Source: Nemertoderma westbladi (lineage: Eukaryota; Animalia; Xenacoelomorpha). Taken from it: a stretch of DNA of 55,839 nucleotides. Where the stretch lies: positions 1 through 55,839 of the forward strand of contig JAUCBJ010000880.1 in NCBI GenBank assembly GCA_032718475.1, given 5' to 3'. Positions 626-26,680 of this stretch are shown one piece after another; the first letter of the stretch is position 1, and every line of letters starts with the position of its first letter. The notes beneath the pieces were generated by a model. It did no database searches and was not told the DNA's origin. It saw only the letters and a list, made by a program, of their open reading frames with translations. Both the position numbers and the translations under genes were made by a program.

Positions 626-674
626 AACTTACTGGTAACTAACCAGGCAACTTACTGGTAACTAACCAGGCAAC
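626..674. repeat. Exact 23-bp tandem duplication spanning the exon 4 splice donor
   Basis: ttactggtaactaaccaggcaac at 629-651 and 652-674, with aac microhomology at 626-628. Confidence 0.9.
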
Positions 675-797
675 ATCTCTCATACTCTTCGGAATGGCTA
701 CGGCGTAGATGCTGAGATCTCCGTAGAGATAGATTGCCAACGACGCGTAGAAGAATAATATCCCGAAACGATTAAAGAACATCCTCGCCATATCGCC
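667..797 (-). CDS. TMEM104: TMEM104-like exon 4 (GDMARMFFNRFGILFFYASLAIYLYGDLSIYAVAIPKSMRDVA)
   Basis: Acceptor TTCCTACTCAG before 797, donor TG|GTTAGT at 666. The peptide matches the recalled TMEM104 segment GQMASMFFNKVG..YLYGDLAIYAAAVP. Confidence 0.85.
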
Positions 798-834
798 CTG
801 AGTAGGAAGTAAATAATACAACTTCGTATTATAG

Positions 835-930
835 TGGTTGTAGTAGTGGTCACCTAGTTTGTTGTAGAGGTTAAATCGGTTGCATTGAAGTCGTGGGTTC
901 GACCCCCGCATGAGTCAGGGTAGTTTTCGT
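835..930 (+). mobile_element. Degenerate tRNA-derived SINE head in intron 3
   Basis: A-box-like TGGTTGTAGTAGTGG (~835-849) and B-box GGTTCGACCC (896-905) inside a GTGGG..CCCCGC T-arm-like stem. No full cloverleaf. Confidence 0.45.
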
Positions 931-1065
931 TTCGGCGTTCGAATGCTTTGAAGAGAACAGCCAAGGCGCACCTCTGCCTTGTTTGTACAATTGCTATTTG
1001 GAACTTCACAAAAACTATAATAATTAAGTTAACCTACTACATGTGCGTGATAAGTACTCGCAGCG

Positions 1066-4000
1066 TTTAGTTAGTTAGAATCCCCTACATGACCCACCAT
1101 TTAGTTAGTTAGAATCCCCTACATGACCCACCATTTAGTTAGTTAGAATCCCCTACATGACCCACCATTTAGTTAGTTAGAATCCCCTACATGACCCACC
1201 ATTTAGTTAGTTAGAATCCCCTACATGACCCACCATTTAGTTAGTTAGAATCCCCTACATGACCCACCATTTAGTTAGTTAGAATCCCCTACATGACCCA
1301 CCATTTAGTTAGTTAGAATCCCCTACATGACCCACCATTTAGTTAGTTAGAATCCCCTACATGACCCACCATTTAGTTAGTTAGAATCCCCTACATGACC
1401 CGCCATTTAGTTAGTTAGAATCCCCTACATGACCCACCATTTAGTTAGTTAGAATCCCCTACATGACCCACCATTTAGTTAGTTAGAATCCCCTACATGA
1501 CCCACCATTTAGTTAGTTAGAATCCCCTACATGACCCACCATTTAGTTAGTTAGAATCCCCTACATGACCCACCATTTAGTTAGTTAGAATCCCCTACAT
1601 GACCCACCATTTAGTTAGTTAGAATCCCCTACATGACCCACCATTTAGTTAGTTAGAATCCCCTACATGACCCACCATTTAGTTAGTTAGAATCCCCTAC
1701 ATGACCCACCATTTAGTTAGTTAGAATCCCCTACATGACCCACCATTTAGTTAGTTAGAATCCCCTACATGACCCGCCATTTAGTTAGTTAGAATCCCCT
1801 ACATGACCCACCATTTAGTTAGTTAGAATCCCCTACATGACCCACCATTTAGTTTGTTAGAATCCCCTACATGACCCACCATTTAGTTAGTTAGAATCCC
1901 CTACATGACCCACCATTTAGTTAGTTAGAATCCCCTACATGACCCACCATTTAGTTAGTTAGAATCCCCTACATGACCCACCATTTAGTTAGTTAGAATC
2001 CCCTACATGACCCACCATTTAGTTAGTTAGAATCCCCTACATGACCCACCATTTAGTTAGTTAGAATCCCCTACATGACCCACCATTTAGTTAGTTAGAA
2101 TCCCCTACATGACCCACCATTTAGTTAGTTAGAATCCCCTACATGACCCACCATTTAGTTAGTTAGAATCCCCTACATGACCCACCATTTAGTTAGTTAG
2201 AATCCCCTACATGACCCACCATTTAGTTAGTTAGAATCCCCTACATGACCCACCATTTAGTTAGTTAGAATCCCCTACATGACCCACCATTTAGTTAGTT
2301 AGAATCCCCTACATGACCCACCATTTAGTTAGTTAGAATCCCCTACATGACCCACCATTTAGTTAGTTAGAATCCCCTACATGACCCACCATTTAGTTAG
2401 TTAGAATCCCCTACATGACCCACCATTTAGTTAGTTAGAATCCCCTACATGACCCACCATTTAGTTAGTTAGAATCCCCTACATGACCCACCATTTAGTT
2501 AGTTAGAATCCCCTACATGACCCACCATTTAGTTAGTTAGAATCCCCTACATGACCCACCATTTAGTTAGTTAGAATCCCCTACATGACCCACCATTTAG
2601 TTAGTTAGAATCCCCTACATGACCCACCATTTAGTTAGTTAGAATCCCCTACATGACCCACCATTTAGTTAGTTAGAATCCCCTACATGACCCACCATTT
2701 AGTTAGTTAGAATCCCCTACATGACCCACCATTTAGTTAGTTAGAATCCCCTACATGACCCACCATTTAGTTAGTTAGAATCCCCTACATGACCCACCAT
2801 TTAGTTAGTTAGAATCCCCTACATGACCCACCATTTAGTTAGTTAGAATCCCCTACATGACCCACCATTTAGTTAGTTAGAATCCCCTACATGACCCACC
2901 ATTTAGTTAGTTAGAATCCCCTACATGACCCACCATTTAGTTAGTTAGAATCCCCTACATGACCCACCATTTAGTTAGTTAGAATCCCCTACATGACCCA
3001 CCATTTAGTTAGTTAGAATCCCCTACATGACCCACCATTTAGTTAGTTAGAATCCCCTACATGACCCACCATTTAGTTAGTTAGAATCCCCTACATGACC
3101 CACCATTTAGTTAGTTAGAATCCCCTACATGACCCACCATTTAGTTAGTTAGAATCCCCTACATGACCCACCATTTAGTTAGTTAGAATCCCCTACATGA
3201 CCCACCATTTAGTTAGTTAGAATCCCCTACATGACCCACCATTTAGTTAGTTAGAATCCCCTACATGACCCACCATTTAGTTAGTTAGAATCCCCTACAT
3301 GACCCACCATTTAGTTAGTTAGAATCCCCTACATGACCCACCATTTAGTTAGTTAGAATCCCCTACATGACCCACCATTTAGTTAGTTAGAATCCCCTAC
3401 ATGACCCACCATTTAGTTAGTTAGAATCCCCTACATGACCCACCATTTAGTTAGTTAGAATCCCCTACATGACCCACCATTTAGTTAGTTAGAATCCCCT
3501 ACATGACCCACCATTTAGTTAGTTAGAATCCCCTACATGACCCACCATTTAGTTAGTTAGAATCCCCTACATGACCCACCATTTAGTTAGTTAGAATCCC
3601 CTACATGACCCACCATTTAGTTAGTTAGAATCCCCTACATGACCCACCATTTAGTTAGTTAGAATCCCCTACATGACCCACCATTTAGTTAGTTAGAATC
3701 CCCTACATGACCCACCATTTAGTTAGTTAGAATCCCCTACATGACCCACCATTTAGTTAGTTAGAATCCCCTACATGACCCACCATTTAGTTAGTTAGAA
3801 TCCCCTACATGACCCACCATTTAGTTAGTTAGAATCCCCTACATGACCCACCATTTAGTTAGTTAGAATCCCCTACATGACCCACCATTTAGTTAGTTAG
3901 AATCCCCTACATGACCCACCATTTAGTTAGTTAGAATCCCCTACATGACCCACCATTTAGTTAGTTAGAATCCCCTACATGACCCACCATTTAGTTAGTT

Positions 4001-7000
4001 AGAATCCCCTACATGACCCACCATTTAGTTAGTTAGAATCCCCTACATGACCCACCATTTAGTTAGTTAGAATCCCCTACATGACCCACCATTTAGTTAG
4101 TTAGAATCCCCTACATGACCCACCATTTAGTTAGTTAGAATCCCCTACATGACCCACCATTTAGTTAGTTAGAATCCCCTACATGACCCACCATTTAGTT
4201 AGTTAGAATCCCCTACATGACCCACCATTTAGTTAGTTAGAATCCCCTACATGACCCACCATTTAGTTAGTTAGAATCCCCTACATGACCCACCATTTAG
4301 TTAGTTAGAATCCCCTACATGACCCACCATTTAGTTAGTTAGAATCCCCTACATGACCCACCATTTAGTTAGTTAGAATCCCCTACATGACCCACCATTT
4401 AGTTAGTTAGAATCCCCTACATGACCCACCATTTAGTTAGTTAGAATCCCCTACATGACCCACCATTTAGTTAGTTAGAATCCCCTACATGACCCACCAT
4501 TTAGTTAGTTAGAATCCCCTACATGACCCACCATTTAGTTAGTTAGAATCCCCTACATGACCCACCATTTAGTTAGTTAGAATCCCCTACATGACCCACC
4601 ATTTAGTTAGTTAGAATCCCCTACATGACCCACCATTTAGTTAGTTAGAATCCCCTACATGACCCACCATTTAGTTAGTTAGAATCCCCTACATGACCCA
4701 CCATTTAGTTAGTTAGAATCCCCTACATGACCCACCATTTAGTTAGTTAGAATCCCCTACATGACCCACCATTTAGTTAGTTAGAATCCCCTACATGACC
4801 CACCATTTAGTTAGTTAGAATCCCCTACATGACCCACCATTTAGTTAGTTAGAATCCCCTACATGACCCACCATTTAGTTAGTTAGAATCCCCTACATGA
4901 CCCACCATTTAGTTAGTTAGAATCCCCTACATGACCCACCATTTAGTTAGTTAGAATCCCCTACATGACCCACCATTTAGTTAGTTAGAATCCCCTACAT
5001 GACCCACCATTTAGTTAGTTAGAATCCCCTACATGACCCACCATTTAGTTAGTTAGAATCCCCTACATGACCCACCATTTAGTTAGTTAGAATCCCCTAC
5101 ATGACCCACCATTTAGTTAGTTAGAATCCCCTACATGACCCACCATTTAGTTAGTTAGAATCCCCTACATGACCCACCATTTAGTTAGTTAGAATCCCCT
5201 ACATGACCCACCATTTAGTTAGTTAGAATCCCCTACATGACCCACCATTTAGTTAGTTAGAATCCCCTACATGACCCACCATTTAGTTAGTTAGAATCCC
5301 CTACATGACCCACCATTTAGTTAGTTAGAATCCCCTACATGACCCACCATTTAGTTAGTTAGAATCCCCTACATGACCCACCATTTAGTTAGTTAGAATC
5401 CCCTACATGACCCACCATTTAGTTAGTTAGAATCCCCTACATGACCCACCATTTAGTTAGTTAGAATCCCCTACATGACCCACCATTTAGTTAGTTAGAA
5501 TCCCCTACATGACCCACCATTTAGTTAGTTAGAATCCCCTACATGACCCACCATTTAGTTAGTTAGAATCCCCTACATGACCCACCATTTAGTTAGTTAG
5601 AATCCCCTACATGACCCACCATTTAGTTAGTTAGAATCCCCTACATGACCCACCATTTAGTTAGTTAGAATCCCCTACATGACCCACCATTTAGTTAGTT
5701 AGAATCCCCTACATGACCCACCATTTAGTTAGTTAGAATCCCCTACATGACCCACCATTTAGTTAGTTAGAATCCCCTACATGACCCACCATTTAGTTAG
5801 TTAGAATCCCCTACATGACCCACCATTTAGTTAGTTAGAATCCCCTACATGACCCACCATTTAGTTAGTTAGAATCCCCTACATGACCCACCATTTAGTT
5901 AGTTAGAATCCCCTACATGACCCACCATTTAGTTAGTTAGAATCCCCTACATGACCCACCATTTAGTTAGTTAGAATCCCCTACATGACCCACCATTTAG
6001 TTAGTTAGAATCCCCTACATGACCCACCATTTAGTTAGTTAGAATCCCCTACATGACCCACCATTTAGTTAGTTAGAATCCCCTACATGACCCACCATTT
6101 AGTTAGTTAGAATCCCCTACATGACCCACCATTTAGTTAGTTAGAATCCCCTACATGACCCACCATTTAGTTAGTTAGAATCCCCTACATGACCCACCAT
6201 TTAGTTAGTTAGAATCCCCTACATGACCCACCATTTAGTTAGTTAGAATCCCCTACATGACCCACCATTTAGTTAGTTAGAATCCCCTACATGACCCACC
6301 ATTTAGTTAGTTAGAATCCCCTACATGACCCACCATTTAGTTAGTTAGAATCCCCTACATGACCCACCATTTAGTTAGTTAGAATCCCCTACATGACCCA
6401 CCATTTAGTTAGTTAGAATCCCCTACATGACCCACCATTTAGTTAGTTAGAATCCCCTACATGACCCACCATTTAGTTAGTTAGAATCCCCTACATGACC
6501 CACCATTTAGTTAGTTAGAATCCCCTACATGACCCACCATTTAGTTAGTTAGAATCCCCTACATGACCCACCATTTAGTTAGTTAGAATCCCCTACATGA
6601 CCCACCATTTAGTTAGTTAGAATCCCCTACATGACCCACCATTTAGTTAGTTAGAATCCCCTACATGACCCACCATTTAGTTAGTTAGAATCCCCTACAT
6701 GACCCACCATTTAGTTAGTTAGAATCCCCTACATGACCCACCATTTAGTTAGTTAGAATCCCCTACATGACCCACCATTTAGTTAGTTAGAATCCCCTAC
6801 ATGACCCACCATTTAGTTAGTTAGAATCCCCTACATGACCCACCATTTAGTTAGTTAGAATCCCCTACATGACCCACCATTTAGTTAGTTAGAATCCCCT
6901 ACATGACCCACCATTTAGTTAGTTAGAATCCCCTACATGACCCACCATTTAGTTAGTTAGAATCCCCTACATGACCCACCATTTAGTTAGTTAGAATCCC

Positions 7001-10000
7001 CTACATGACCCACCATTTAGTTAGTTAGAATCCCCTACATGACCCACCATTTAGTTAGTTAGAATCCCCTACATGACCCACCATTTAGTTAGTTAGAATC
7101 CCCTACATGACCCACCATTTAGTTAGTTAGAATCCCCTACATGACCCACCATTTAGTTAGTTAGAATCCCCTACATGACCCACCATTTAGTTAGTTAGAA
7201 TCCCCTACATGACCCACCATTTAGTTAGTTAGAATCCCCTACATGACCCACCATTTAGTTAGTTAGAATCCCCTACATGACCCACCATTTAGTTAGTTAG
7301 AATCCCCTACATGACCCACCATTTAGTTAGTTAGAATCCCCTACATGACCCACCATTTAGTTAGTTAGAATCCCCTACATGACCCACCATTTAGTTAGTT
7401 AGAATCCCCTACATGACCCACCATTTAGTTAGTTAGAATCCCCTACATGACCCACCATTTAGTTAGTTAGAATCCCCTACATGACCCACCATTTAGTTAG
7501 TTAGAATCCCCTACATGACCCACCATTTAGTTAGTTAGAATCCCCTACATGACCCACCATTTAGTTAGTTAGAATCCCCTACATGACCCACCATTTAGTT
7601 AGTTAGAATCCCCTACATGACCCACCATTTAGTTAGTTAGAATCCCCTACATGACCCACCATTTAGTTAGTTAGAATCCCCTACATGACCCACCATTTAG
7701 TTAGTTAGAATCCCCTACATGACCCACCATTTAGTTAGTTAGAATCCCCTACATGACCCACCATTTAGTTAGTTAGAATCCCCTACATGACCCACCATTT
7801 AGTTAGTTAGAATCCCCTACATGACCCACCATTTAGTTAGTTAGAATCCCCTACATGACCCACCATTTAGTTAGTTAGAATCACCTACATGACCCACCAT
7901 TTAGTTAGTTAGAATCCCCTACATGACCCACCATTTAGTTAGTTAGAATCCCCTACATGACCCACCATTTAGTTAGATAGAATCCCCTACATTTCCCACC
8001 ATTTAGTTAGTTAGAATCCCCTACATGACCCACCATTTAGTTAGTTAGAATCCCCTACATGACCCACCATTTAGTTAGTTAGAATCCCCTACATGACCCA
8101 CCATTTAGTTAGTTAGAATCCCCTACATGACCCACCATTTAGTTAGTTAGAATCACCTACATGACCCACCATTTAGTTAGTTAGAATCCCCTACATGACC
8201 CACCATTTAGTTAGTTAGAATCACCTACATGACCCACCATTTAGTTAGTTAGAATCACCTACATGAACCACCATTTAGTTAGTTAGAATCACCTACATGA
8301 CCCACCATTTAGTTAGTTAGAATCCCCTACATGACCCACCATTTAGTTAGTTAGAATCCCCTACATGACCCACCATTTAGTTAGTTAGAATCCCCTACAT
8401 GACCCACCATTTAGTTAGTTAGAATCCCCTACATGACCCACCATTTAGTTAGTTAGAATCCCCTACATGACCCACCATTTAGTTAGTTAGAATCACCTAC
8501 ATGAACCACCATTTAGTTAGTTAGAATCACCTACATGACCCACCATTTAGTTGGTTAGAATCCCCTACATGAACCACCATTTAGTTAGTTAGAATCCCCT
8601 ACATGAACCACCATTTAGTTAGTTAGAATCCCCTACATGACCCACCATTTAGTTAGTTAGAATCACCTACATGACCCACCATTTAGTTAGTTAGAATCAC
8701 CTACATGACCCACCATTTAGTTAGTTAGAATCACCTACATGAACCACCATTTAGTTAGTTAGAATCACCTACATGACCCACCATTTAGTTAGTTAGAATA
8801 CCCTACATGAGCCACCATTTAGTTAGTTAGAATCCCCTACATGACCCACCATTTAGTTAGTTAGAATCCCCTACATGACCCACCATTTAGTTAGTTAGAA
8901 TCCCCTACATGACCCACCATTTAGTTAGTTAGAATCACCTACATGACCCACCATTTAGTTAGTTAGAATCACCTACATGAACCACCATTTAGTTAGTTAG
9001 AATCACCTACATGACCCACCATTTAGTTAGTTAGAATCCCCTACATGACCCACCATTTAGTTAGTTAGAATCCCCTACATGACCCACCATTTAGTTAGTT
9101 AGAATCACCTACATGAACCACCATTTAGTTAGTTAGAATCACCTACATGACCCACCATTTAGTTAGTTAGAATCCCCCACATGACCCGCCATTTAGTTAG
9201 TTAGAATCACCTACATGACCCACCATTTAGTTAGTTAGAATCACCTACATGAACCACCATTTAGTTAGTTAGAATCACCTACATGACCCACCATTTAGTT
9301 AGTTAGAATCCCCTACATGACCCACCATTTAGTTAGTTAGAATCCCCTACATGACCCACCATTTAGTTAGTTAGAATCACCTACATGAACCACCATTTAG
9401 TTAGTTAGAATCACCTACATGACCCACCATTTAGTTGGTTAGAATCCCCTACATGAACCACCATTTAGTTAGTTAGAATCCCCTACATGACCCACCATTT
9501 AGTTAGTTAGAATCCCCTACATGACCCGCCATTTAGTTAGTTAGAATCCCCTACATGACCCACCATTTAGTTAGTTAGAATCCCCTACATGACCCACCAT
9601 TTAGTTAGTTAGAATCCCCTACATGACCCACCATTTAGTTAGTTAGAATCACCTACATGACCCACCATTTAGTTAGTTAGAATCCCCTACATGACCCACC
9701 ATTTAGTTAGTTAGAATCCCCTACATGACCCACCATTTAGTTAGTTAGAATCCCCTACATGACCCACCATTTAGTTAGTTAGAATCCCCTACATGACCCA
9801 CCATTTAGTTAGTTAGAATCCCCTACATGAACCACCATTTAGTTAGTTAGAATCCCCTACATGACCCACCATTTAGTTAGTTAGAATCCCCTACATGACC
9901 CGCCATTTAGTTAGTTAGAATCCCCTACATGACCCACCATTTAGTTAGTTAGAATCCCCTACATGACCCACCATTTAGTTGGTTAGAATCCCCTACATGA

Positions 10001-13000
10001 CCCACCATTTAGTTAGTTAGAATCCCCTACATGACCCACCATTTACTTAGTTAGAATCCCCTACATGACCCACCATTTAGTTAGTTAGAATCACCTACAT
10101 GACCCACCATTTAGTTAGTTAGAATCCCCTACATGACCCACCATTTAGTTAGTTAGAATCCCCTACATGACCCACCATTTAGTTAGTTAGAATCCCCTAC
10201 ATGAACCACCATTTAGTTAGTTAGAATCCCCTACATGACCCACCATTTAGTTAGTTAGAATCCCCTACATGACCCACCATTTAGTTAGTTAGAATCCCCT
10301 ACATGACCCACCATTTAGTTAGTTAGAATCCCCTACATGACCCACCATTTACTTAGTTAGAATCCCCTACATGACCCACCATTTACTTAGTTAGAATCCC
10401 CTACATGACCCACCATTTAGTTAGTTAGAATCCCCTACATGACCCACCATTTAGTTAGTTAGAATCCCCCACATGACCCGCCATTTAGTTAGTTAGAATC
10501 CCCTACATGACCCACCATTTAGTTAGTTAGAATCCCCTACATGACCCACCATTTAGTTAGTTAGAATCCCCTACATGACCCACCATTTACTTAGTTAGAA
10601 TCCCCTACATGACCCACCATTTAGTTAGTTAGAATCCCCTACATGACCCACCATTTAGTTAGTTAGAATCCCCTACATGACCCACCATTTAGTTAGTTAG
10701 AATCCCCTACATGACCCACCATTTAGTTAGTTAGAATCCCCTACATGACCCACCATTTAGTTAGTTAGAATCCCCTACATGACCCACCATTTAGTTAGTT
10801 AGAATCCCCTACATGACCCGCCATTTAGTTAGTTAGAATCCCCTACATGACCCACCATTTAGTTAGTTAGAATCCCCTACATGACCCACCATTTAGTTAG
10901 TTAGAATCCCCTACATGACCCACCATTTAGTTAGTTAGAATCCCCTACATGACCCACCATTTAGTTAGTTAGAATCCCCTACATGACCCACCATTTAGTT
11001 AGTTAGAATCCCCTACATGACCCACCATTTAGTTAGTTAGAATCACCTACATGACCCACCATTTAGTTAGTTAGAATCCCCTACATGACCCACCATTTAG
11101 TTAGTTAGAATCCCCTACATGACCCACCATTTAGTTAGATAGAATCCCCTACATTTCCCACCATTTAGTTAGTTAGAATCCCCTACATGACCCACCATTT
11201 AGTTAGTTAGAATCCCCTACATGACCCACCATTTAGTTAGTTAGAATCCCCTACATGACCCACCATTTAGTTAGTTAGAATCCCCTACATGACCCACCAT
11301 TTAGTTAGTTAGAATCACCTACATGACCCACCATTTAGTTAGTTAGAATCCCCTACATGACCCACCATTTAGTTAGTTAGAATCACCTACATGACCCACC
11401 ATTTAGTTAGTTAGAATCACCTACATGAACCACCATTTAGTTAGTTAGAATCACCTACATGACCCACCATTTAGTTAGTTAGAATCCCCTACATGACCCA
11501 CCATTTAGTTAGTTAGAATCCCCTACATGACCCACCATTTAGTTAGTTAGAATCCCCTACATGACCCACCATTTAGTTAGTTAGAATCCCCTACATGACC
11601 CACCATTTAGTTAGTTAGAATCCCCTACATGACCCACCATTTAGTTAGTTAGAATCACCTACATGAACCACCATTTAGTTAGTTAGAATCACCTACATGA
11701 CCCACCATTTAGTTGGTTAGAATCCCCTACATGAACCACCATTTAGTTAGTTAGAATCCCCTACATGAACCACCATTTAGTTAGTTAGAATCCCCTACAT
11801 GACCCACCATTTAGTTAGTTAGAATCACCTACATGACCCACCATTTAGTTAGTTAGAATCACCTACATGACCCACCATTTAGTTAGTTAGAATCACCTAC
11901 ATGAACCACCATTTAGTTAGTTAGAATCACCTACATGACCCACCATTTAGTTAGTTAGAATACCCCACATGAGCCACCATTTAGTTAGTTAGAATCCCCT
12001 ACATGACCCACCATTTAGTTAGTTAGAATCCCCTACATGACCCACCATTTAGTTAGTTAGAATCCCCTACATGACCCACCATTTAGTTAGTTAGAATCAC
12101 CTACATGACCCACCATTTAGTTAGTTAGAATCACCTACATGAACCACCATTTAGTTAGTTAGAATCACCTACATGACCCACCATTTAGTTAGTTAGAATC
12201 CCCTACATGACCCACCATTTAGTTAGTTAGAATCCCCTACATGACCCACCATTTAGTTAGTTAGAATCACCTACATGAACCACCATTTAGTTAGTTAGAA
12301 TCACCTACATGACCCACCATTTAGTTAGTTAGAATCCCCCACATGACCCGCCATTTAGTTAGTTAGAATCACCTACATGACCCACCATTTAGTTAGTTAG
12401 AATCACCTACATGAACCACCATTTAGTTAGTTAGAATCACCTACATGACCCACCATTTAGTTAGTTAGAATCCCCTACATGACCCACCATTTAGTTAGTT
12501 AGAATCCCCTACATGACCCACCATTTAGTTAGTTAGAATCACCTACATGAACCACCATTTAGTTAGTTAGAATCACCTACATGACCCACCATTTAGTTGG
12601 TTAGAATCCCCTACATGAACCACCATTTAGTTAGTTAGAATCCCCTACATGACCCACCATTTAGTTAGTTAGAATCCCCTACATGACCCGCCATTTAGTT
12701 AGTTAGAATCCCCTACATGACCCACCATTTAGTTAGTTAGAATCCCCTACATGACCCACCATTTAGTTAGTTAGAATCCCCTACATGACCCACCATTTAG
12801 TTAGTTAGAATCACCTACATGACCCACCATTTAGTTAGTTAGAATCCCCTACATGACCCACCATTTAGTTAGTTAGAATCCCCTACATGACCCACCATTT
12901 AGTTAGTTAGAATCCCCTACATGACCCACCATTTAGTTAGTTAGAATCCCCTACATGACCCACCATTTAGTTAGTTAGAATCCCCTACATGAACCACCAT

Positions 13001-16000
13001 TTAGTTAGTTAGAATCCCCTACATGACCCACCATTTAGTTAGTTAGAATCCCCTACATGACCCGCCATTTAGTTAGTTAGAATCCCCTACATGACCCACC
13101 ATTTAGTTAGTTAGAATCCCCTACATGACCCACCATTTAGTTGGTTAGAATCCCCTACATGACCCACCATTTAGTTAGTTAGAATCCCCTACATGACCCA
13201 CCATTTACTTAGTTAGAATCCCCTACATGACCCACCATTTAGTTAGTTAGAATCACCTACATGACCCACCATTTAGTTAGTTAGAATCCCCTACATGACC
13301 CACCATTTAGTTAGTTAGAATCCCCTACATGACCCACCATTTAGTTAGTTAGAATCCCCTACATGAACCACCATTTAGTTAGTTAGAATCCCCTACATGA
13401 CCCACCATTTAGTTAGTTAGAATCCCCTACATGACCCACCATTTAGTTAGTTAGAATCCCCTACATGACCCACCATTTAGTTAGTTAGAATCCCCTACAT
13501 GACCCACCATTTACTTAGTTAGAATCCCCTACATGACCCACCATTTACTTAGTTAGAATCCCCTACATGACCCACCATTTAGTTAGTTAGAATCCCCTAC
13601 ATGACCCACCATTTAGTTAGTTAGAATCCCCCACATGACCCGCCATTTAGTTAGTTAGAATCCCCTACATGACCCACCATTTAGTTAGTTAGAATCCCCT
13701 ACATGACCCACCATTTAGTTAGTTAGAATCCCCTACATGACCCACCATTTACTTAGTTAGAATCCCCTACATGACCCACCATTTAGTTAGTTAGAATCCC
13801 CTACATGACCCGCCATTTAGTTAGTTAGAATCCCCTACATGACCCACCATTTACTTAGTTAGAATCCCCTACATGACCCACCATTTAGTTAGTTAGAATC
13901 CCCTACATGACCCGCCATTTAGTTAGTTAGAATCCCCTACATGACCCACCATTTAGTTAGTTAGAATCCCCCACATCACCCGCCATTTAGTTAGTTAGAA
14001 TCCCCTACATGACCCACCATTTAGTTAGTTAGAATCCCCTACATGACCCACCATTTACTTAGTTAGAATCCCCTACATGACCCACCATTTAGTTAGTTAG
14101 AATCCCCTACATGACCCACCATTTAGTTAGTTAGAATCCCCTACATGACCCACCATTTAGTTAGTTAGAATCCCCTACATGACCCACCATTTAGTTAGTT
14201 AGAATCCCCTACATGACCCACCATTTAGTTAGTTAGAATCCCCTACATGACCCGCCATTTAGTTAGTTAGAATCCCCTACATGACCCGCCATTTAGTTAG
14301 TTAGAATCCCCTACATGACCCACCATTTAGTTAGTTAGAATCCCCTACATGACCCACCATTTAGTTAGTTAGAATCCCCTACATGACCCGCCATTTAGTT
14401 AGTTAGAATCCCCACCATGACCCACCATTTAGTTAGTTAGAATCCCCTACATGACCCACCATTTAGTTAGTTAGAATCCCCTACATGACCCGCCATTTAG
14501 TTAGTTAGAATCCCCTACATGACCCACCATTTAGTTAGTTAGAATCCCCTACATGACCCGCCATTTAGTTAGTTAGAATCCCCTACATGACCCACCATTT
14601 AGTTAGTTAGAATCCCCTACATGACCCACCATTTAGTTAGTTAGAATCCCCTACATGACCCGCCATTTAGTTAGTTAGAATCCCCTACATGACCCACCAT
14701 TTAGTTAGTTAGAATCCCCTACATGACCCACCATTTAGTTAGTTAGAATCCCCTACATGACCCACCATTTAGTTAGTTAGAATCACCTACATGACCCACC
14801 ATTTAGTTAGTTAGAATCACCTACATGAACCACCATTTAGTTAGTTAGAATCACCTACATGACCCACCATTTAGTTAGTTAGAATCCCCTACATGACCCA
14901 CCATTTAGTTAGTTAGAATCCCCTACATGACCCACCATTTAGTTAGTTAGAATCCCCTACATGACCCACCATTTAGTTAGTTAGAATCCCCTACATGACC
15001 CACCATTTAGTTAGTTAGAATCCCCTACATGACCCACCATTTAGTTAGTTAGAATCACCTACATGAACCACCATTTAGTTAGTTAGAATCCCCTACATGA
15101 CCCACCATTTAGTTAGTTAGAATCACCTACATGACCCACCATTTAGTTAGTTAGAATCACCTACATGAACCACCATTTAGTTAGTTAGAATCACCTACAT
15201 GACCCACCATTTAGTTAGTTAGAATCCCCTACATGACCCACCATTTAGTTAGTTAGAATCCCCTACATGACCCACCATTTAGTTAGTTAGAATCCCCTAC
15301 ATGACCCACCATTTAGTTAGTTAGAATCCCCTACATGACCCACCATTTAGTTAGTTAGAATCCCCTACATGACCCACCATTTAGTTAGTTAGAATCACCT
15401 ACATGAACCACCATTTAGTTAGTTAGAATCACCTACATGACCCACCATTTAGTTGGTTAGAATCCCCTACATGAACCACCATTTAGTTAGTTAGAATCCC
15501 CTACATGAACCACCATTTAGTTAGTTAGAATCCCCTACATGACCCACCATTTAGTTAGTTAGAATCACCTACATGACCCACCATTTAGTTAGTTAGAATC
15601 ACCTACATGACCCACCATTTAGTTAGTTAGAATCACCTACATGAACCACCATTTAGTTAGTTAGAATCACCTACATGACCCACCATTTAGTTAGTTAGAA
15701 TACCCTACATGAGCCACCATTTAGTTAGTTAGAATCCCCTACATGACCCACCATTTAGTTAGTTAGAATCCCCTACATGACCCACCATTTAGTTAGTTAG
15801 AATCCCCTACATGACCCACCATTTAGTTAGTTAGAATCACCTACATGACCCACCATTTAGTTAGTTAGAATCACCTACATGAACCACCATTTAGTTAGTT
15901 AGAATCACCTACATGACCCACCATTTAGTTAGTTAGAATCCCCTACATGACCCACCATTTAGTTAGTTAGAATCCCCTACATGACCCACCATTTAGTTAG

Positions 16001-19000
16001 TTAGAATCACCTACATGAACCACCATTTAGTTAGTTAGAATCACCTACATGACCCACCATTTAGTTAGTTAGAATCCCCCACATGACCCGCCATTTAGTT
16101 AGTTAGAATCACCTACATGACCCACCATTTAGTTAGTTAGAATCACCTACATGAACCACCATTTAGTTAGTTAGAATCACCTACATGACCCACCATTTAG
16201 TTAGTTAGAATCCCCTACATGACCCACCATTTAGTTAGTTAGAATCCCCTACATGACCCACCATTTAGTTAGTTAGAATCACCTACATGAACCACCATTT
16301 AGTTAGTTAGAATCACCTACATGACCCACCATTTAGTTGGTTAGAATCCCCTACATGAACCACCATTTAGTTAGTTAGAATCCCCTACATGACCCACCAT
16401 TTAGTTAGTTAGAATCCCCTACATGACCCGCCATTTAGTTAGTTAGAATCCCCTACATGACCCACCATTTAGTTAGTTAGAATCCCCTACATGACCCACC
16501 ATTTAGTTAGTTAGAATCCCCTACATGACCCACCATTTAGTTAGTTAGAATCACCTACATGACCCACCATTTAGTTAGTTAGAATCCCCTACATGACCCA
16601 CCATTTAGTTAGTTAGAATCCCCTACATGACCCACCATTTAGTTAGTTAGAATCCCCTACATGACCCACCATTTAGTTAGTTAGAATCCCCTACATGACC
16701 CACCATTTAGTTAGTTAGAATCCCCTACATGAACCACCATTTAGTTAGTTAGAATCCCCTACATGACCCACCATTTAGTTAGTTAGAATCCCCTACATGA
16801 CCCGCCATTTAGTTAGTTAGAATCCCCTACATGACCCACCATTTAGTTAGTTAGAATCCCCTACATGACCCACCATTTAGTTGGTTAGAATCCCCTACAT
16901 GACCCACCATTTAGTTAGTTAGAATCCCCTACATGACCCACCATTTACTTAGTTAGAATCCCCTACATGACCCACCATTTAGTTAGTTAGAATCACCTAC
17001 ATGACCCACCATTTAGTTAGTTAGAATCCCCTACATGACCCACCATTTAGTTAGTTAGAATCCCCTACATGACCCACCATTTAGTTAGTTAGAATCCCCT
17101 ACATGAACCACCATTTAGTTAGTTAGAATCCCCTACATGACCCACCATTTAGTTAGTTAGAATCCCCTACATGACCCACCATTTAGTTAGTTAGAATCCC
17201 CTACATGACCCACCATTTAGTTAGTTAGAATCCCCTACATGACCCACCATTTACTTAGTTAGAATCCCCTACATGACCCACCATTTACTTAGTTAGAATC
17301 CCCTACATGACCCACCATTTAGTTAGTTAGAATCCCCTACATGACCCACCATTTAGTTAGTTAGAATCCCCCACATGACCCGCCATTTAGTTAGTTAGAA
17401 TCCCCTACATGACCCACCATTTAGTTAGTTAGAATCCCCTACATGACCCACCATTTAGTTAGTTAGAATCCCCTACATGACCCACCATTTACTTAGTTAG
17501 AATCCCCTACATGACCCACCATTTAGTTAGTTAGAATCCCCTACATGACCCGCCATTTAGTTAGTTAGAATCCCCTACATGACCCACCATTTACTTAGTT
17601 AGAATCCCCTACATGACCCACCATTTAGTTAGTTAGAATCCCCTACATGACCCGCCATTTAGTTAGTTAGAATCCCCTACATGACCCACCATTTAGTTAG
17701 TTAGAATCCCCCACATCACCCGCCATTTAGTTAGTTAGAATCCCCTACATGACCCACCATTTAGTTAGTTAGAATCCCCTACATGACCCACCATTTAGTT
17801 AGTTAGAATCCCCTACATGACCCACCATTTACTTAGTTAGAATCCCCTACATGACCCACCATTTAGTTAGTTAGAATCCCCTACATGACCCACCATTTAG
17901 TTAGTTAGAATCACCTACATGACCCACCATTTAGTTAGTTAGAATCCCCTACATGACCCGCCATTTAGTTAGTTAGAATCCCCTACATGACCCGCCATTT
18001 AGTTAGTTAGAATCCCCTACATGACCCACCATTTAGTTAGTTAGAATCCCCTACATGACCCACCATTTAGTTAGTTAGAATCCCCTACATGACCCGCCAT
18101 TTAGTTAGTTAGAATCCCCACCATGACCCACCATTTAGTTAGTTAGAATCCCCCACATGACCCACCATTTAGTTAGTTAGAATCCCCTACATGACCCGCC
18201 ATTTAGTTAGTTAGAATCCCCTACATGACCCACCATTTAGTTAGTTAGAATCCCCTACATGACCCGCCATTTAGTTAGTTAGAATCCCCTACATGACCCA
18301 CCATTTAGTTAGTTAGAATCCCCTACATGACCCACCATTTAGTTAGTTAGAATCCCCTACATGACCCGCCATTTAGTTAGTTAGAATCCCCTACATGACC
18401 CACCATTTAGTTAGTTAGAATCCCCTACATGACCCACCATTTAGTTAGTTAGAATCCCCTACATGACCCACCATTTAGTTAGAATCCCCTACATGACCCA
18501 CCATTTAGTTAGTTAGAATCCCCTACATGACCCACCATTTAGTTAGTTAGAATCCCCCACATGACCCACCATTTAGTTAGTTAGAATCCCCTACATGACC
18601 CACCATTTAGTTAGTTAGAATCCCCTACATGACCCACCATTTAGTTAGTTAGAATCCCCTACATGACCCACCATTTAGTTAGTTAGAATCACCTACATGA
18701 CCCACCATTTAGTTAGTTAGAATCACCTACATGAACCACCATTTAGTTAGTTAGAATCACCTACATGACCCACCATTTAGTTAGTTAGAATCCCCTACAT
18801 GACCCACCATTTAGTTAGTTAGAATCCCCTACATGACCCACCATTTAGTTAGTTAGAATCCCCTACATGACCCACCATTTAGTTAGTTAGAATCCCCTAC
18901 ATGACCCACCATTTAGTTAGTTAGAATCCCCTACATGACCCACCATTTAGTTAGTTAGAATCACCTACATGAACCACCATTTAGTTAGTTAGAATCCCCT

Positions 19001-22000
19001 ACATGACCCACCATTTAGTTAGTTAGAATCACCTACATGACCCACCATTTAGTTAGTTAGAATCACCTACATGAACCACCATTTAGTTAGTTAGAATCAC
19101 CTACATGACCCACCATTTAGTTAGTTAGAATCCCCTACATGACCCACCATTTAGTTAGTTAGAATCCCCTACATGACCCACCATTTAGTTAGTTAGAATC
19201 CCCTACATGACCCACCATTTAGTTAGTTAGAATCCCCTACATGACCCACCATTTAGTTAGTTAGAATCCCCTACATGACCCACCATTTAGTTAGTTAGAA
19301 TCACCTACATGAACCACCATTTAGTTAGTTAGAATCACCTACATGACCCACCATTTAGTTGGTTAGAATCCCCTACATGAACCACCATTTAGTTAGTTAG
19401 AATCCCCTACATGAACCACCATTTAGTTAGTTAGAATCCCCTACATGACCCACCATTTAGTTAGTTAGAATCACCTACATGACCCACCATTTAGTTAGTT
19501 AGAATCACCTACATGACCCACCATTTAGTTAGTTAGAATCACCTACATGAACCACCATTTAGTTAGTTAGAATCACCTACATGACCCACCATTTAGTTAG
19601 TTAGAATACCCTACATGAGCCACCATTTAGTTAGTTAGAATCCCCTACATGACCCACCATTTAGTTAGTTAGAATCCCCTACATGACCCACCATTTAGTT
19701 AGTTAGAATCCCCTACATGACCCACCATTTAGTTAGTTAGAATCACCTACATGACCCACCATTTAGTTAGTTAGAATCACCTACATGAACCACCATTTAG
19801 TTAGTTAGAATCACCTACATGACCCACCATTTAGTTAGTTAGAATCCCCTACATGACCCACCATTTAGTTAGTTAGAATCCCCTACATGACCCACCATTT
19901 AGTTAGTTAGAATCACCTACATGAACCACCATTTAGTTAGTTAGAATCACCTACATGACCCACCATTTAGTTAGTTAGAATCCCCCACATGACCCGCCAT
20001 TTAGTTAGTTAGAATCACCTACATGACCCACCATTTAGTTAGTTAGAATCACCTACATGAACCACCATTTAGTTAGTTAGAATCACCTACATGACCCACC
20101 ATTTAGTTAGTTAGAATCCCCTACATGACCCACCATTTAGTTAGTTAGAATCCCCTACATGACCCACCATTTAGTTAGTTAGAATCACCTACATGAACCA
20201 CCATTTAGTTAGTTAGAATCACCTACATGACCCACCATTTAGTTGGTTAGAATCCCCTACATGAACCACCATTTAGTTAGTTAGAATCCCCTACATGACC
20301 CACCATTTAGTTAGTTAGAATCCCCTACATGACCCGCCATTTAGTTAGTTAGAATCCCCTACATGACCCACCATTTAGTTAGTTAGAATCCCCTACATGA
20401 CCCACCATTTAGTTAGTTAGAATCCCCTACATGACCCACCATTTAGTTAGTTAGAATCACCTACATGACCCACCATTTAGTTAGTTAGAATCCCCTACAT
20501 GACCCACCATTTAGTTAGTTAGAATCCCCTACATGACCCACCATTTAGTTAGTTAGAATCCCCTACATGACCCACCATTTAGTTAGTTAGAATCCCCTAC
20601 ATGACCCACCATTTAGTTAGTTAGAATCCCCTACATGAACCACCATTTAGTTAGTTAGAATCCCCTACATGACCCACCATTTAGTTAGTTAGAATCCCCT
20701 ACATGACCCGCCATTTAGTTAGTTAGAATCCCCTACATGACCCACCATTTAGTTAGTTAGAATCCCCTACATGACCCACCATTTAGTTGGTTAGAATCCC
20801 CTACATGACCCGCCATTTAGTTAGTTAGAATCCCCACATGACCCACCATTTAGTTAGTTAGAATCCCCTACATGACCCACCATTTAGTTAGTTAGAATCC
20901 CCTACATGACCCGCCATTTAGTTAGTTAGAATCCCCTACATGACCCACCATTTAGTTAGTTAGAATCCCCTACATGACCCGCCATTTAGTTAGTTAGAAT
21001 CCCCTACATGACCCACCATTTAGTTAGTTAGAATCCCCTACATGACCCACCATTTAGTTAGTTAGAATCCCCTACATGACCCGCCATTTAGTTAGTTAGA
21101 ATCCCCTACATGACCCACCATTTAGTTAGTTAGAATCCCCTACATGACCCACCATTTAGTTAGTTAGAATCCCCTACATGACCCACCATTTTAGTTAGAA
21201 TCCCCTACATGACCCACCATTTAGTTAGTTAGAATCCCCTACATGACCCACCATTTAGTTAGTTAGAATCCCCTACATGACCCACCATTTAGTTAGTTAG
21301 AATCCCCTACATGACCCACCATTTAGTTAGTTAGAATCCCCTACATGACCCACCATTTAGTTAGTTAGAATCCCCTACATGACCCACCATTTAGTTAGTT
21401 AGAATCCCCTACATGACCCACCATTTAGTTAGTTAGAATCCCCTACATGACCCACCATTTAGTTAGTTAGAATCCCCTACATGACCCACCATTTAGTTAG
21501 TTAGAATCCCCTACATGACCCACCATTTAGTTAGTTAGAATCCCCTACATGACCCACCATTTAGTTAGTTAGAATCCCCTACATGACCCACCATTTAGTT
21601 AGTTAGAATCCCCTACATGACCCGCCATTTAGTTAGTTAGAATCCCCTACATGACCCACCATTTAGTTAGTTAGAATCCCCTACATGACCCACCATTTAG
21701 TTAGTTAGAATCCCCTACATGACCCGCCATTTAGTTAGTTAGAATCCCCTACATGACCCACCATTTAGTTAGTTAGAATCCCCTACATGACCCGCCATTT
21801 AGTTAGTTAGAATCCCCTACATGACCCACCATTTAGTTAGTTAGAATCCCCTACATGACCCACCATTTAGTTAGTTAGAATCCCCTACATGACTCGCCAT
21901 TTAGTTAGTTAGAATCCCCTACATGACCCACCATTTAGTTAGTTAGAATCCCCTACATGACCCACCATTTAGTTAGTTAGAATCCCCTACATGACCCACC

Positions 22001-25000
22001 ATTTAGTTAGTTAGAATCCCCTACATGACCCGCCATTTAGTTAGTTAGAATCCCCTACATGACCCACCATTTAGTTAGTTAGAATCCCCTACATGACCCA
22101 CCATTTAGTTAGTTAGAATCCCCTACATGACCCGCCATTTAGTTAGTTAGAATCCCCTACATGACCCACCATTTAGTTAGTTACAATCCCATACATGACC
22201 CACCATTTAGTTAGTTAGAATCCCCTACATGACCCACCATTTAGTTAGTTAGAATCCCCTACATGACCCACCATTTAGTTAGTTAGAATCCCCTACATGA
22301 CCCACCATTTAGTTAGTTAGAATCCCCTACATGACCCACCATTTAGTTAGTTAGAATCCCCTACATGACCCACCATTTAGTTAGTTAGAATCCCCTACAT
22401 GACCCGCCATTTAGTTAGTTAGAATCCCCTACATGACCCACCATTTAGTTAGTTAGAATCCCCTACATGACCCACCATTTAGTTAGTTAGAATCCCCTAC
22501 ATGACCCACCATTTAGTTAGTTAGAATCCCCTACATGACCCACCATTTAGTTAGTTAGAATCCCCTACATGACCCACCATTTAGTTAGTTAGAATCCCCT
22601 ACATGACCCGCCATTTAGTTAGTTAGAATCCCCTACATGACCCACCATTTAGTTAGTTAGAATCCCCTACATGACCCACCATTTAGTTAGTTAGAATCCC
22701 CTACATGACCCACCATTTAGTTAGTTAGAATCCCCTACATGACCCACCATTTAGTTAGTTAGAATCCCCTACATGACCCGCCATTTAGTTAGTTAGAATC
22801 CCCTACATGACCCACCATTTAGTTAGTTAGAATCCCCTACATGACCCACCATTTAGTTAGTTAGAATCCCCTACATGACCCACCATTTAGTTAGTTAGAA
22901 TCCCCTACATGACCCGCCATTTAGTTAGTTAGAATCCCCTACATGACCCACCATTTAGTTAGTTAGAATCCCCTACATGACCCGCCATTTAGTTAGTTAG
23001 AATCCCCTACATGACCCACCATTTAGTTAGTTAGAATCCCCTACATGACCCACCATTTAGTTAGTTAGAATCCCCTAAATGACCCACCATTTAGTTAGTT
23101 AGAATCCCCTACATGACCCACCATTTAGTTAGTTAGAATCCCCTACATGACCCACCATTTAGTTAGTTAGAATCCCCTACATGACCCACCATTTAGTTAG
23201 AATCCCCTAAATGACCCACCATTTAGTTAGTTAGAATCCCCTACATGACCCACCATTTAGTTAGTTAGAATCCCCTACATGACCCGCCATTTAGTTAGTT
23301 AGAATCCCCTACATGACCCACCATTTAGTTAGTTAGAATCCCCTAAATGACCCACCATTTAGTTAGTTAGAATCCCCTACATGACCCACCATTTAGTTAG
23401 TTAGAATCCCCTATATGACCCACCATTTAGTTAGTTAGAATCCCCTACATGACCCGCCATTTAGTTAGTTAGAATCCCCTACATGACCCACCATTTAGTT
23501 AGTTAGAATCCCCTAAATGACCCACCATTTAGTTAGTTAGAATCCCCTACATGACCCACCATTTAGTTAGTTAGAATCCCCTACATGACCCGCCATTTAG
23601 TTAGTTAGAATCCCCTACATGACCCACCATTTAGTTAGTTAGAATCCCCTAAATGACCCACCATTTAGTTAGTTAGAATCCCCTACATGACCCGCCATTT
23701 AGTTAGTTAGAATCCCCTACATGACCCACCATTTAGTTAGTTAGAATCCCCTAAATGACCCACCATTTAGTTAGTTAGAATCCCCTACATGACCCACCAT
23801 TTAGTTAGTTAGAATCCCCTACATGACCCACCATTTAGTTAGTTAGAATCCCCTACATGACCCGCCATTTAGTTAGTTAGAATCCCCTACATGACCCACC
23901 ATTTAGTTAGTTAGAATCCCCTACATGACCCACCATTTAGTTAGTTAGAATCCCCTACATGACACACCATTTAGTTAGAATCCCCTAAATGACCCACCAT
24001 TTAGTTAGTTAGAATCCCCTACATGACCCACCATTTAGTTAGTTAGAATCCCCTACATGACCCACCATTTAGTTAGTTAGAATCCCCTACATGACCCACC
24101 ATTTAGTTAGTTAGAATCCCCTACATGACCCGCCATTTAGTTAGTTAGAATCCCCTACATGACCCACCATTTAGTTAGTTAGAATCCCCTACATGACCCA
24201 CCATTTAGTTAGTTAGAATCCCCTACATGACCCACCATTTAGTTAGAATCCCCTAAATGACCCACCATTTAGTTAGTTAGAATCCCCTACATGACCCACC
24301 ATTTAGTTAGTTAGAATCCCCTACATGACCCACCATTTAGTTAGTTAGAATCCCCTACATGACCCACCATTTAGTTAGTTAGAATCCCCTACATGACCCA
24401 CCATTTAGTTAGTTAGAATCCCCCACATGACCCACCATTTAGTTAGTTAGAATCCCCTACATGACCCACCATTTAGTTAGTTAGAATCCCCTACATGACC
24501 CGCCATTTAGTTAGTTAGAATCCCCTACATGACCCACCATTTAGTTAGTTAGAATCCCCTACATGACCCGCCATTTAGTTAGTTAGAATCCCCTACATGA
24601 CCCACCATTTAGTTAGTTAGAATCCCCCACATGACCCACCATTTAGTTAGTTAGAATCCCCTACATGACCCGCCATTTAGTTAGTTAGAATCCCCTACAT
24701 GACCCACCATTTAGTTAGTTAGAATCCCCTACATGACCCACCATTTAGTTAGAATCCCCTAAATGACCCACCATTTAGTTAGTTAGAATCCCCTACATGA
24801 CCCACCATTTAGTTAGTTAGAATCCCCGACATGACCCACCATTTAGTTAGTTAGAATCCCCTACATGACCCACCATTTAGTTAGTTAGAATCCCCTACAT
24901 GACCCACCATTTAGTTAGTTAGAATCCCCTACATGACCCACCATTTAGTTAGTTAGAATCCCCTACATGACCCACCATTTAGTTAGTTAGAATCCCCTAC

Positions 25001-25686
25001 ATGACCCGCCATTTAGTTAGTTAGAATCCCCTACATGACCCGCCATTTAGTTAGTTAGAATCCCCTACATGACCCACCATTTAGTTAGTTAGAATCCCCT
25101 ACATGACCCGCCATTTAGTTAGTTAGAATCCCCTACATGACCCACCATTTAGTTAGTTAGAATCCCCTACATGACCCACCATTTAGTTAGTTAGAATCCC
25201 CTACATGACCCACCATTTAGTTAGAATCCCCTAAATGACCCACCATTTAGTTAGTTAGAATCCCCTACATGACCCACCATTTAGTTAGTTAGAATCCCCT
25301 ACATGACCCACCATTTAGTTAGTTAGAATCCCCTACATGACCCACCATTTAGTTAGTTAGAATCCCCTACATGACCCACCATTTAGTTAGAATCCCCTAA
25401 ATGACCCACCATTTAGTTAGTTAGAATCCCCTACATGACCCACCATTTAATTGGTTAGAATCCCCTACATGACCCACCATTTAGTTAGTTAGAATCACCT
25501 ACATGACCCACCATTTAGTTAGTTAGTATCCCCTACATGACCCACCATTTAGTTAGATAGAATCCCCTACATGACCCACCATTTAGTTAGTTAGAATCCC
25601 CTACATGACCCACCATTTAGTTAGTTAGAATCCCCTACATGACCCGCCATTTAGTTAGTTAGAATCCCCTACACGACCCACCATTT
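1066..25686. repeat. 34-bp tandem satellite array, ~24.6 kb, ~725 copies, consensus TTTAGTTAGTTAGAATCCCCTACATGACCCACCA
   Basis: Period 34 read directly (tcccc at 1081, 1115 ...). Perfectly homogeneous ~1.9-7.9 kb, variant-patterned higher-order blocks 7.9-20.8 kb, and 30-bp deletion variants toward 25.7 kb. Confidence 0.99.
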
Positions 25687-25801
25687 CAACTTTTCTTTCG
25701 ATCTCGTATTTATTCCGTTTGGGTTCCTGAAGATAAGTTAATTCGGATGGCTCATCGACCTCCAGACTGGCTGTAGAATCCGCGTTAACTACAGGAGGTA
25801 T
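25682..25801 (-). CDS. TMEM104: TMEM104-like exon 3 (IPPVVNADSTASLEVDEPSELTYLQEPKRNKYEIERKVEM)
   Basis: 120 nt, acceptor TTTATTCACAG, donor ATG|GTGGGT. YEIERKVEM joined to exon 4 GDMARMFF reproduces the conserved FEITDRVEMGQMASMFF motif. Not in the ORF track. Confidence 0.85.
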
Positions 25802-26065: not shown

Positions 26066-26263
26066 CATAACAGAATGTTTGGCTGAGAGGACGACGTTAG
26101 CGTTGGACATGGCCTCTATCATAAACGTGACGGTCGCGTAAGAGATTACAGCGAGTAGAGTGAGAGTTAGTAAACCGAAGAACCAGCCGGCCTGGGCGAA
26201 GGCGAGGGGTAAAGCGAGGGCTCCGGTACCGACAATAAGGTTGAACACGTAAATAAAGCCAAT
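26066..26263 (-). CDS. TMEM104: TMEM104-like exon 2 (IGFIYVFNLIVGTGALALPLAFAQAGW...EAMSNANVVLSAKHSVM)
   Basis: 198 nt, acceptor TCTCCCGTTACAG, donor ATG|GTTAGT. FNLIVGTGAL is the TM1 signature of the TMEM104/Aa_trans family. Confidence 0.9.
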
Positions 26264-26647: not shown

Positions 26648-26680
26648 CAACGGTGAATATGTTTCTTTAATTCGATCCAT
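26648..26680 (-). CDS. TMEM104: TMEM104-like exon 1 (MDRIKETYSPL)
   Basis: AAAATG start context, canonical donor TTG|GTAAGT, phase 0 into exon 2. YSP resembles the YSS/YSP preceding TM1 in homologues. Confidence 0.75.

What the first reader, a model, noticed from the sequence alone, without database searches (positions are those of the whole stretch)
1066..25690. A 24.6-kb satellite made by amplifying the gene's own 5' splice site
Seen: on the transcribed (minus) strand the unit is AAATG|GTGGGTCATGTAGGGGATTCTAACTAACT, i.e. the last 5 nt of exon 3 plus the first 29 nt of intron 3. The array starts exactly at the functional donor (25681) and ends in unique intron sequence TAAACG, which shares AAAyG microhomology with the exon end GAAATG. 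Collapsing the array leaves an intron of about 300 bp, like its neighbours. The pre-mRNA would carry hundreds of copies of the donor context. Using any downstream donor hits a stop (ATG GTG GGT CGT GTA GGG GAT TCT AAC TAA). Inference: de novo birth of a satellite from a single-copy exon-intron junction, and a natural test of how the first donor is chosen among identical decoys.
Basis: partly seen in the sequence, partly recalled or inferred. Interest (0 to 1): 0.8.

Follow-up and report, generated by a model that had tools for sequence, protein, structure and literature searches.

The report
Giant splice-donor repeat in transporter intron
The end of one exon of an animal's membrane-transporter gene, splice signal included, is repeated 725 times over 24.6 kb of the next intron, yet the one RNA assembly checked joins the exons at the first signal, so this is likely a tolerated, unusually large case of a repeat type already known from human and lancelet genes.

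Summary
Real. A 34-bp unit (last 5 nt of coding exon 3 plus first 29 nt of intron 3 of a TMEM104-like gene) is repeated 725 times; 603 copies keep the donor. One spliced contig joins 25682 to 797. The intron position is shared with 7 of 80 homologous loci, so the array did not bring the donor. Two DNA samples carry the repeat, roughly 12-fold apart in depth: likely a length-variable array, not a new birth in this haplotype; no one-copy allele was seen. The kind is in print: human F7 VNTR (same GTGGGT donor, first site used) and lancelet 'mirages', with 3-26 copies. The scan found the same build before on other DNA of this genome and in other animals (unchecked). Caveat: every later donor adds an in-frame stop, so RNA decay could hide its use. 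New here: the scale, and seed and giant stages side by side.

The parts
26648..26764 (-). First coding exon of a TMEM104-like (Aa_trans) gene; ATG at 26680; donor GTAAGT at 26647
   Evidence: RNA contig covers 26648-26764 and joins 26648 to 26263; translation MDRIKETYSPL
26066..26263 (-). Coding exon 2
   Evidence: RNA joints with CT..AC ends; Pfam Aa_trans E 3.8e-11; named TMEM104 hits
25682..25801 (-). Coding exon 3 (120 nt), ends E-M, phase 0
   Evidence: RNA contig; translation
1069..25686 (-). Array of 725 units of 34 bp = last 5 nt of exon 3 + first 29 nt of intron 3; functional donor at 25681
25653..25686 (-). Unit 1, holding the used donor; private change at +8
   Evidence: RNA junction
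8700..20784 (-). Middle of the array with higher-order block copies (exact runs of 33-72 units repeated at offsets of 93, 110, 115, 203, 225 units); bounds approximate
   Evidence: 51 variant-unit matches at lag 93 against at most 22 in 30 shuffles
1885..7868 (-). 176 consecutive perfect units (5,984 bp)
798..1068 (-). Unique distal part of intron 3 (271 nt) with the acceptor; 936-1064 is replaced by 30 other nt in a second haplotype
667..797 (-). Coding exon 4 (GDMARMFF...RDVA + TG, phase 2)
   Evidence: loose end of the RNA contig = window 768-796; homologues
626..674 (-). Second donor duplication: 23-bp unit (8 exonic + 15 intronic nt) in 2 copies at the exon 4 donor
   Evidence: present without gaps in contigs of X1 and X3

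Best explanation
A 34-bp piece spanning the exon 3 donor of a TMEM104-like gene is repeated 725 times in intron 3 and the assembled mRNA uses the first donor; the array likely began as a short tandem duplication of the junction and likely grew by slippage and unequal exchange, tolerated because the first donor wins. Steps: (1) shown: the unit is the junction, and the intron position is older than the array. (2) inferred: a two-copy seed formed at a 3-nt AAA microhomology; a two-copy state is seen at the next donor. (3) inferred from block copies and a 6-kb pure run: growth in jumps of 3-4 kb plus recent homogenising expansion. (4) shown in one RNA assembly of another sample: first donor used. 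(5) inferred from the F7 experiments: the most upstream donor after the exon is chosen by 5'-to-3' scanning or exon definition; any leak would add an in-frame stop and would likely be removed by nonsense-mediated decay (general knowledge). No function is needed.
For: Unit equals the junction. Intron 3 sits at the same codon boundary (E-M/L|GT...AG|G, introns 54-232 bp) in 7 of 80 homologous loci. X4 contig 25 (508 nt) runs exons 1-2-3 and then exon 4; its depth alone explains the bin 25661-25721. In X1 three contigs (a 64-nt cycle and the two flanks) account for all depth in the array bins. Simulated k=31 graphs reproduce the observed contig ends: 25647 for two alleles with the private unit 1, 25657 for two or more consensus units, read-through for one unit alone. 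Block copies. Five polymorphic insertions of 5-21 nt in other haplotypes each begin with a copy of the adjacent 5-15 nt, so short duplications look common in this species. Precedents: PMC1557585, PMC3087553, PMC3902484.
Against: No genome held, so the single-locus claim rests on contigs of one run that are filtered and cut, and X1 may be the window's own source. The RNA run is another sample whose array size is unknown. No one-copy allele seen. X1 depth ratio (154 per flank copy, about 307 consensus words per diploid) is below the 499 in the window's array alone, so 725 is not confirmed outside the assembly. Two of the three commonest variants hit donor +2 and +5, which a purely neutral model does not predict, though only 5 of the distinct substitution types fall in the 9-nt donor.
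Confidence: 0.8

Rival explanations
1. Exon edges are targeted by a mutational process in this genome: junction duplications arise far more often than elsewhere in introns, for example when exchange between very different alleles starts in a conserved exon and aborts where intron homology ends, or at transcription-linked breaks. This concerns the seeding step and is compatible with the growth and tolerance steps of the best explanation.
For: 2 of 4 coding donors in view are duplicated; short tandem duplications cover 356 of 31,199 non-array bases, giving about 3-4% for one more donor hit by chance (post hoc). 0 of 40 homologous loci of other organisms have a duplicated exon 4 donor (loci are partly redundant). 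Introns differ strongly between haplotypes. Unchecked scan notes: 18 of 19 notes in this genome fit the look-up.
Against: One window, one extra case; the notes are picked for this feature. A high background rate of short duplications plus purging of exonic ones can look similar. No genome-wide count was possible.
Confidence: 0.3
2. The decoys are used at a real rate and the array works as a dosage valve: later donors give stop-containing mRNA that is destroyed, so longer or more intact arrays lower TMEM104 output.
For: All later donors add the same in-frame TAA. U1-facing bases -5 to +7 are the same in unit 1 and in consensus units. In IFI6 and CBS nearby pseudo-sites are used (PMC1557585 introduction). 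Unit 2 is a GC variant and 28 of the first 145 units are GC. Folding does not hide the decoys more than unit 1 in a consistent way (unpaired 0.32 for unit 1, 0.15-0.44 for units 2-8).
Against: The only RNA contig across exon 3 uses the first donor. In F7, with the same GTGGGT hexamer, pseudo-sites do not compete. 603 of 725 units are intact, and array content seems to differ about 12-fold between samples, which fits weak constraint.
Confidence: 0.12
3. The copy number is inflated by assembly; the true allele has far fewer units.
For: A 5,984-bp perfect run; X1 depth gives about 307 consensus words per diploid against 499 in the window, close to the 323 left without the perfect run (and subtraction); sample S2 has about 12-fold less.
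Against: Ordered block copies with private variants over about 12 kb are hard to invent; X1 depth still means hundreds of units; depth of contigs is not a copy number and X1 lacks this haplotype's distal flank.
Confidence: 0.12
4. A satellite from elsewhere in the genome inserted here and supplied the donor.
For: None found. Not excluded genome-wide because no genome is held.
Against: The intron position is conserved in 7 of 80 homologous loci and the unit's first 5 nt code for the conserved E-M; three contigs explain all X1 depth; no 12-mer elsewhere in the window.
Confidence: 0.03
5. The long intron is removed stepwise (recursive splicing) through sites inside the units.
For: Each unit has a donor, two CTAAC branch-like words and one AG about 20-24 nt after them (and the sequence).
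Against: The AG is followed by GGG, not GT, and has no pyrimidine tract before it (sequence); 25 kb is not an extreme intron length (general knowledge).
Confidence: 0.05

Closest known systems
Human F7 intron 7 37-bp VNTR (Borensztajn et al. 2006, PMC1557585; read: abstract, introduction, discussion)
   Same: First monomer = last few exonic nt (4 there, 5 here) plus the start of the intron; same donor hexamer GTGGGT; only the most upstream donor used; length polymorphic
   Different: 5-9 copies there, 725 here; higher-order blocks and a 6-kb pure run here; in F7 two pseudo-sites would keep the frame open, here every later donor adds a stop; decoy competence was tested there, not here
IFI6 (6-16), CBS intron 13, LMNB2 and PDGF donor minisatellites (seen only as cited in the introduction of PMC1557585)
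   Same: Donor reiterated in the downstream intron
   Different: 10-26 copies; IFI6 and CBS use two pseudo-sites as well
Lancelet 'mirage' minisatellites: Adh3, globins BflGb6/BflGb9, troponin C, PGBD5 (PMC3087553, 7 passages; PMC3902484, 1 passage; the Adh3 paper PMC117041 is not held)
   Same: Tandem repeats over an exon-intron boundary, unit 10-160 bp, splicing undisturbed, length unstable, boundary units escape homogenisation, several cases per genome
   Different: 3-6 copies in the globin example against 725; no hit above 71% identity among 29 proteins suggests the animal is not an annotated lancelet (inference)
Satellite-filled giant introns of Drosophila Y genes (PMC11207136, search listing only)
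   Same: Intron enlarged by tandem DNA
   Different: Those are 100-fold longer and, from recall, built of simple satellites and elements unrelated to the host junction

Membership tests
Donor-spanning minisatellite (F7 IVS7 type) | First monomer spans the exon-intron boundary | tested here: met
Donor-spanning minisatellite (F7 IVS7 type) | Donor sequence reiterated in the intron | tested here: met
   603 of 725 units keep ATG|GTGGGT
Donor-spanning minisatellite (F7 IVS7 type) | Most upstream donor is the one used | tested here: met
   One contig of one RNA run, junction 25682-797; minor or decayed products would not show
Donor-spanning minisatellite (F7 IVS7 type) | Copy number varies between individuals | tested here: inconclusive
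   About 12-fold depth difference S1 against S2 after normalising on 5 dispersed-repeat bins, same value in both S2 runs; contig depth is not a copy number and allele sizes were not read
Donor-spanning minisatellite (F7 IVS7 type) | Pseudo-sites can be activated when the first is lost | not testable with these tools
   needs a minigene
Lancelet 'mirage' | Tandem repeat over an exon-intron boundary, unit 10-160 bp | tested here: met
   34-bp and 23-bp units; definition
Lancelet 'mirage' | Regular splicing undisturbed | tested here: met
   open frame over exons 1-4, 160 aa, 53% to the best homologue
Lancelet 'mirage' | Internal homogenisation with divergent boundary units | tested here: met
   Private variants in units 1 and 4-7, 19 unit types in the first 145 against 3 variant units in the last 145; the distal end of this haplotype is not divergent
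Lancelet 'mirage' | Somatic length instability | not testable with these tools
   only contigs were available
Dispersed satellite family | Arrays of the unit at several loci | tested here: inconclusive
   No sign in X1 (three contigs explain the depth) or in the window; no genome held
Recursive-splicing (ratchet) sites | AG directly followed by GT with a pyrimidine tract | tested here: not met
   The unit's one AG is followed by GGG, purine-rich upstream

The most novel reading that the evidence does not exclude
This animal has a mutational process aimed at exon edges that seeds splice-site duplications (two copies at the exon 4 donor) and lets some run away to satellite size (725 copies at the exon 3 donor, varying about tenfold between individuals), making its splice junctions a main birthplace of satellite DNA and of intron length.
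Probability: 0.3. Interest if true: 0.72.

Novelty: new variant of a known kind. Interest (0 to 1): 0.42.

Why it matters
It shows that a known oddity, printed with 3-26 copies, reaches satellite size (an intron about 80 times its collapsed length) while the gene still yields a normal mRNA. The origin of most satellites cannot be traced; here the parent sequence is still a working splice site, and a two-copy case lies at the next donor. Alleles of very different length in one species would allow a test of whether hundreds of U1-matching decoys cost anything, provided decay is blocked. If junctions prove to be targeted genome-wide, that would be a new mutational bias.

Tried and rejected
Whole-genome search: no genome held. 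Run search listed no holder on record as RNA; X4 was taken as RNA because its contigs skip two GT-AG introns. X4 has no cover inside the array and X1-X4 have none at 1015-1053: holes, not evidence. A 26-nt piece of the unit has 0 exact matches in metagenome contigs. No look-alike of the junction in earlier scan windows, nothing noted near it. Selection for donor-killing variants: weak and post hoc (counts are inflated by block copies), not claimed. Structure masking of decoys: no consistent pattern over 8 units. Which exon 4 donor is used: not read directly, the tables were cut; X4 depth of 16 at 625-663 fits contigs that stop at 663 (15.9-17.5 expected) and not an exon running to 656 (128) or 644 (319), and homologues splice at the first TG|GT, so the first copy is likely used. 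A one-copy allele paired with a multi-copy allele in S2 would give the same break at 25657 and is not excluded. Literature: 8 searches found no paper on donor arrays of hundreds of copies or on a genome-wide count in an invertebrate; the library lacks most subscription papers, PMC117041 was not held, and no supplements were read. PMC10078293 passages did not bear on donor-spanning units. The species was not identified.
Full report
Observation. The array is as described. TRF gives period 34, 725.1 copies, 1066-25686. Tiling on the minus strand gives 725 units from 25686 to 1069, 485 of them identical, 32 types. The unit is the last 5 nt of the exon plus 29 intronic nt; the donor GT lies at 25681-25680. 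603 of 725 units keep ATG|GTGGGT, 64 carry GC and 55 are changed at +5. With one unit the intron would be 300 nt, beside neighbours of 384 and 264 nt; as it stands it is 24,884 nt. No 12-mer of the unit occurs in the rest of the window, which is mostly mobile-element remains (read by eye).

The gene. Exon 2 matches Pfam Aa_trans (E 3.8e-11); 29 longer proteins hit, those with names mostly called TMEM104, best identity 71%. The four coding exons in view give an open frame of 160 aa, 53% identical to the best stored homologue. The animal was not identified.

Splicing. Six runs were listed, four hold the stretch, from three samples. X4 is not on record as RNA but its contigs skip 25802-26065 and 26264-26647 with GT-AG ends. 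Its contig 25 runs through coding exons 1-3 and leaves the stretch at 25681 with letters equal to window 768-796: the junction is 25682 to 797, as predicted. That contig alone explains the depth in the bin (112.2 computed, 112.3 seen). Limits: one run, contigs only, another sample with unknown array size. Every later donor adds V G R V G D S N stop, so such products would likely be degraded (general knowledge); their absence from contigs says little about what the spliceosome does.

The donor is older than the array. Of 80 loci fetched with the TMEM104 alignment (best 80 of 149 confirmed), 7 have an acceptor AG directly before the exon 4 glycine codon and an upstream exon ending E-M or E-L then GT, with introns of 54-232 bp (L006 and L009 look like one organism). 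The others are intronless or spliced there, have an intron elsewhere, or (1) end too near. 40 of 80 have the exon 4 donor at the same TG|GT; none of the 40 has it duplicated (partly redundant loci). So the array did not create the intron.

Other individuals. In X1 (possibly the window's own source, so not independent) three contigs hold the unit: a 64-nt cycle at depth 3288, the exon-side flank (21.4) and the intron-side flank (9.0); their sum reproduces the depth in both array bins (2814.6 against 2814.7; 670.0 against 670.1). This fits one locus, within the limits of filtered contigs. The exon-side contig ends at 25647 in X1 and at 25657 in X2 and X3. Simulated k=31 graphs (k recalled for these assemblies) give exactly 25647 for two alleles sharing the private unit 1 and differing in unit 2, and 25657 for two or more consensus units, while a lone one-unit allele reads through. 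The intron-side contig of X1 and X3 runs 58 nt into the repeat, so that haplotype has at least two units. After scaling on five dispersed-repeat bins, array depth in X2 and X3 (one sample) is 11.9 and 12.1 times lower than in X1. The tool warns that depth is no copy number, so I take this only as a sign of a large length difference. Against the assembly: X1 gives about 307 consensus words per diploid, the window alone 499; 725 itself is unconfirmed. The second haplotype replaces 936-1064 by 30 other nt, which trims the claimed microhomology to AAA.

How it grew. Variant units recur at lags of 93, 110, 115, 203 and 225 units (51 matches at lag 93, at most 22 in 30 shuffles), in exact runs of up to 72 units; the distal part has 176 perfect units in a row; the donor end holds the most unit types. 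I infer jumps of 3-4 kb by unequal exchange and a recent expansion at the far end. The RNA-like strand is G-rich (skew 0.43), which might favour R-loops; untested.

A second case in the same gene. The exon 4 donor is duplicated too: 23 bp, 8 exonic and 15 intronic nt, two copies, 626-674, present without gaps in X1 and X3 contigs. Short tandem duplications cover 356 of 31,199 non-array bases, so one more donor hit has a chance of about 3-4% (post hoc). Five insertions of 5-21 nt seen in other haplotypes each start with a copy of the adjacent bases, one of them in frame in coding exon 1 (one further 8-nt insertion row and a 2-nt row in repeats were not all checked: the five examined were those of 5 nt or more). 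Short duplications thus seem common in this species; whether junctions are targeted beyond that cannot be settled from one window.

Comparison. The human F7 intron 7 VNTR has the same build and the same GTGGGT hexamer, 5-9 copies, and mutagenesis showed that the pseudo-sites work but do not compete, the most upstream site being chosen (PMC1557585; abstract, introduction, discussion). That paper cites IFI6, CBS, LMNB2 and PDGF arrays of 10-26 copies, two of which use nearby pseudo-sites. Lancelet 'mirages' are the same kind, with length instability and undisturbed splicing (PMC3087553 and PMC3902484 passages); I took this lead from earlier scan notes and checked it in the papers. The array meets the tested defining features of both; it differs in scale (about 30-100 times more copies) and in its block structure. 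Eight searches found no paper on arrays of this size. Unchecked scan notes report the same build at many genes of this genome (18 of 19 notes fit the look-up, 8 shown) and in mussel, octopus, urchin and annelid genomes; I did not test them.

Verdict. Real, locally derived, likely neutral and tolerated (0.8). A new variant, by scale, of a known kind. Interest 0.42; the bolder reading, a mutational bias at exon edges, 0.3 likely and worth 0.72.

Noticed in passing
window 626-674: The exon 4 donor is duplicated in tandem (23 bp, 2 copies); each copy also holds an A|GTAAGT word, so four candidate donors lie within 35 nt.
   Followed up: partly
window 26656 (run X4): An expressed allele has a 21-nt in-frame insertion in coding exon 1, 9 nt from its donor: a 15-nt copy of the adjacent bases plus 6 filler nt.
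   Followed up: partly
window 26744, 26807, 27032, 27113: Polymorphic insertions of 5-8 nt that copy the neighbouring bases, some with filler.
   Followed up: partly
window 890-975: A high-copy element with tRNA-like look (depth 100-fold over flank in DNA runs) lies in the unique part of intron 3; its distal part is missing in the second haplotype.
   Followed up: no
window 26905-27220: RNA joint with CT..AC ends: likely a 316-nt 5' UTR intron.
   Followed up: no
window 33018-37624: A Gypsy-like LTR element on the minus strand with two apparently identical LTRs (about 33018-33203 and 37453-37624 by eye), inserted into another element; read by eye only.
   Followed up: no
window 28350-32430, 41700-45450, 50000-50560 and 53800-54360: LINE-like frames on both strands; 50000-50560 and 53800-54360 look like inverted copies of one element; 39060-39250 recurs at 45610-45800 (by eye).
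   Followed up: no
window 27574-28021: Small AT-rich tandem repeats (periods 20-157) upstream of the gene.
   Followed up: no
P0007 and P0011: A termite gene model and an insect-like transcript run on into the introns at the same two positions (after E-M and after the exon 4 TG), in line with conserved intron sites.
   Followed up: partly
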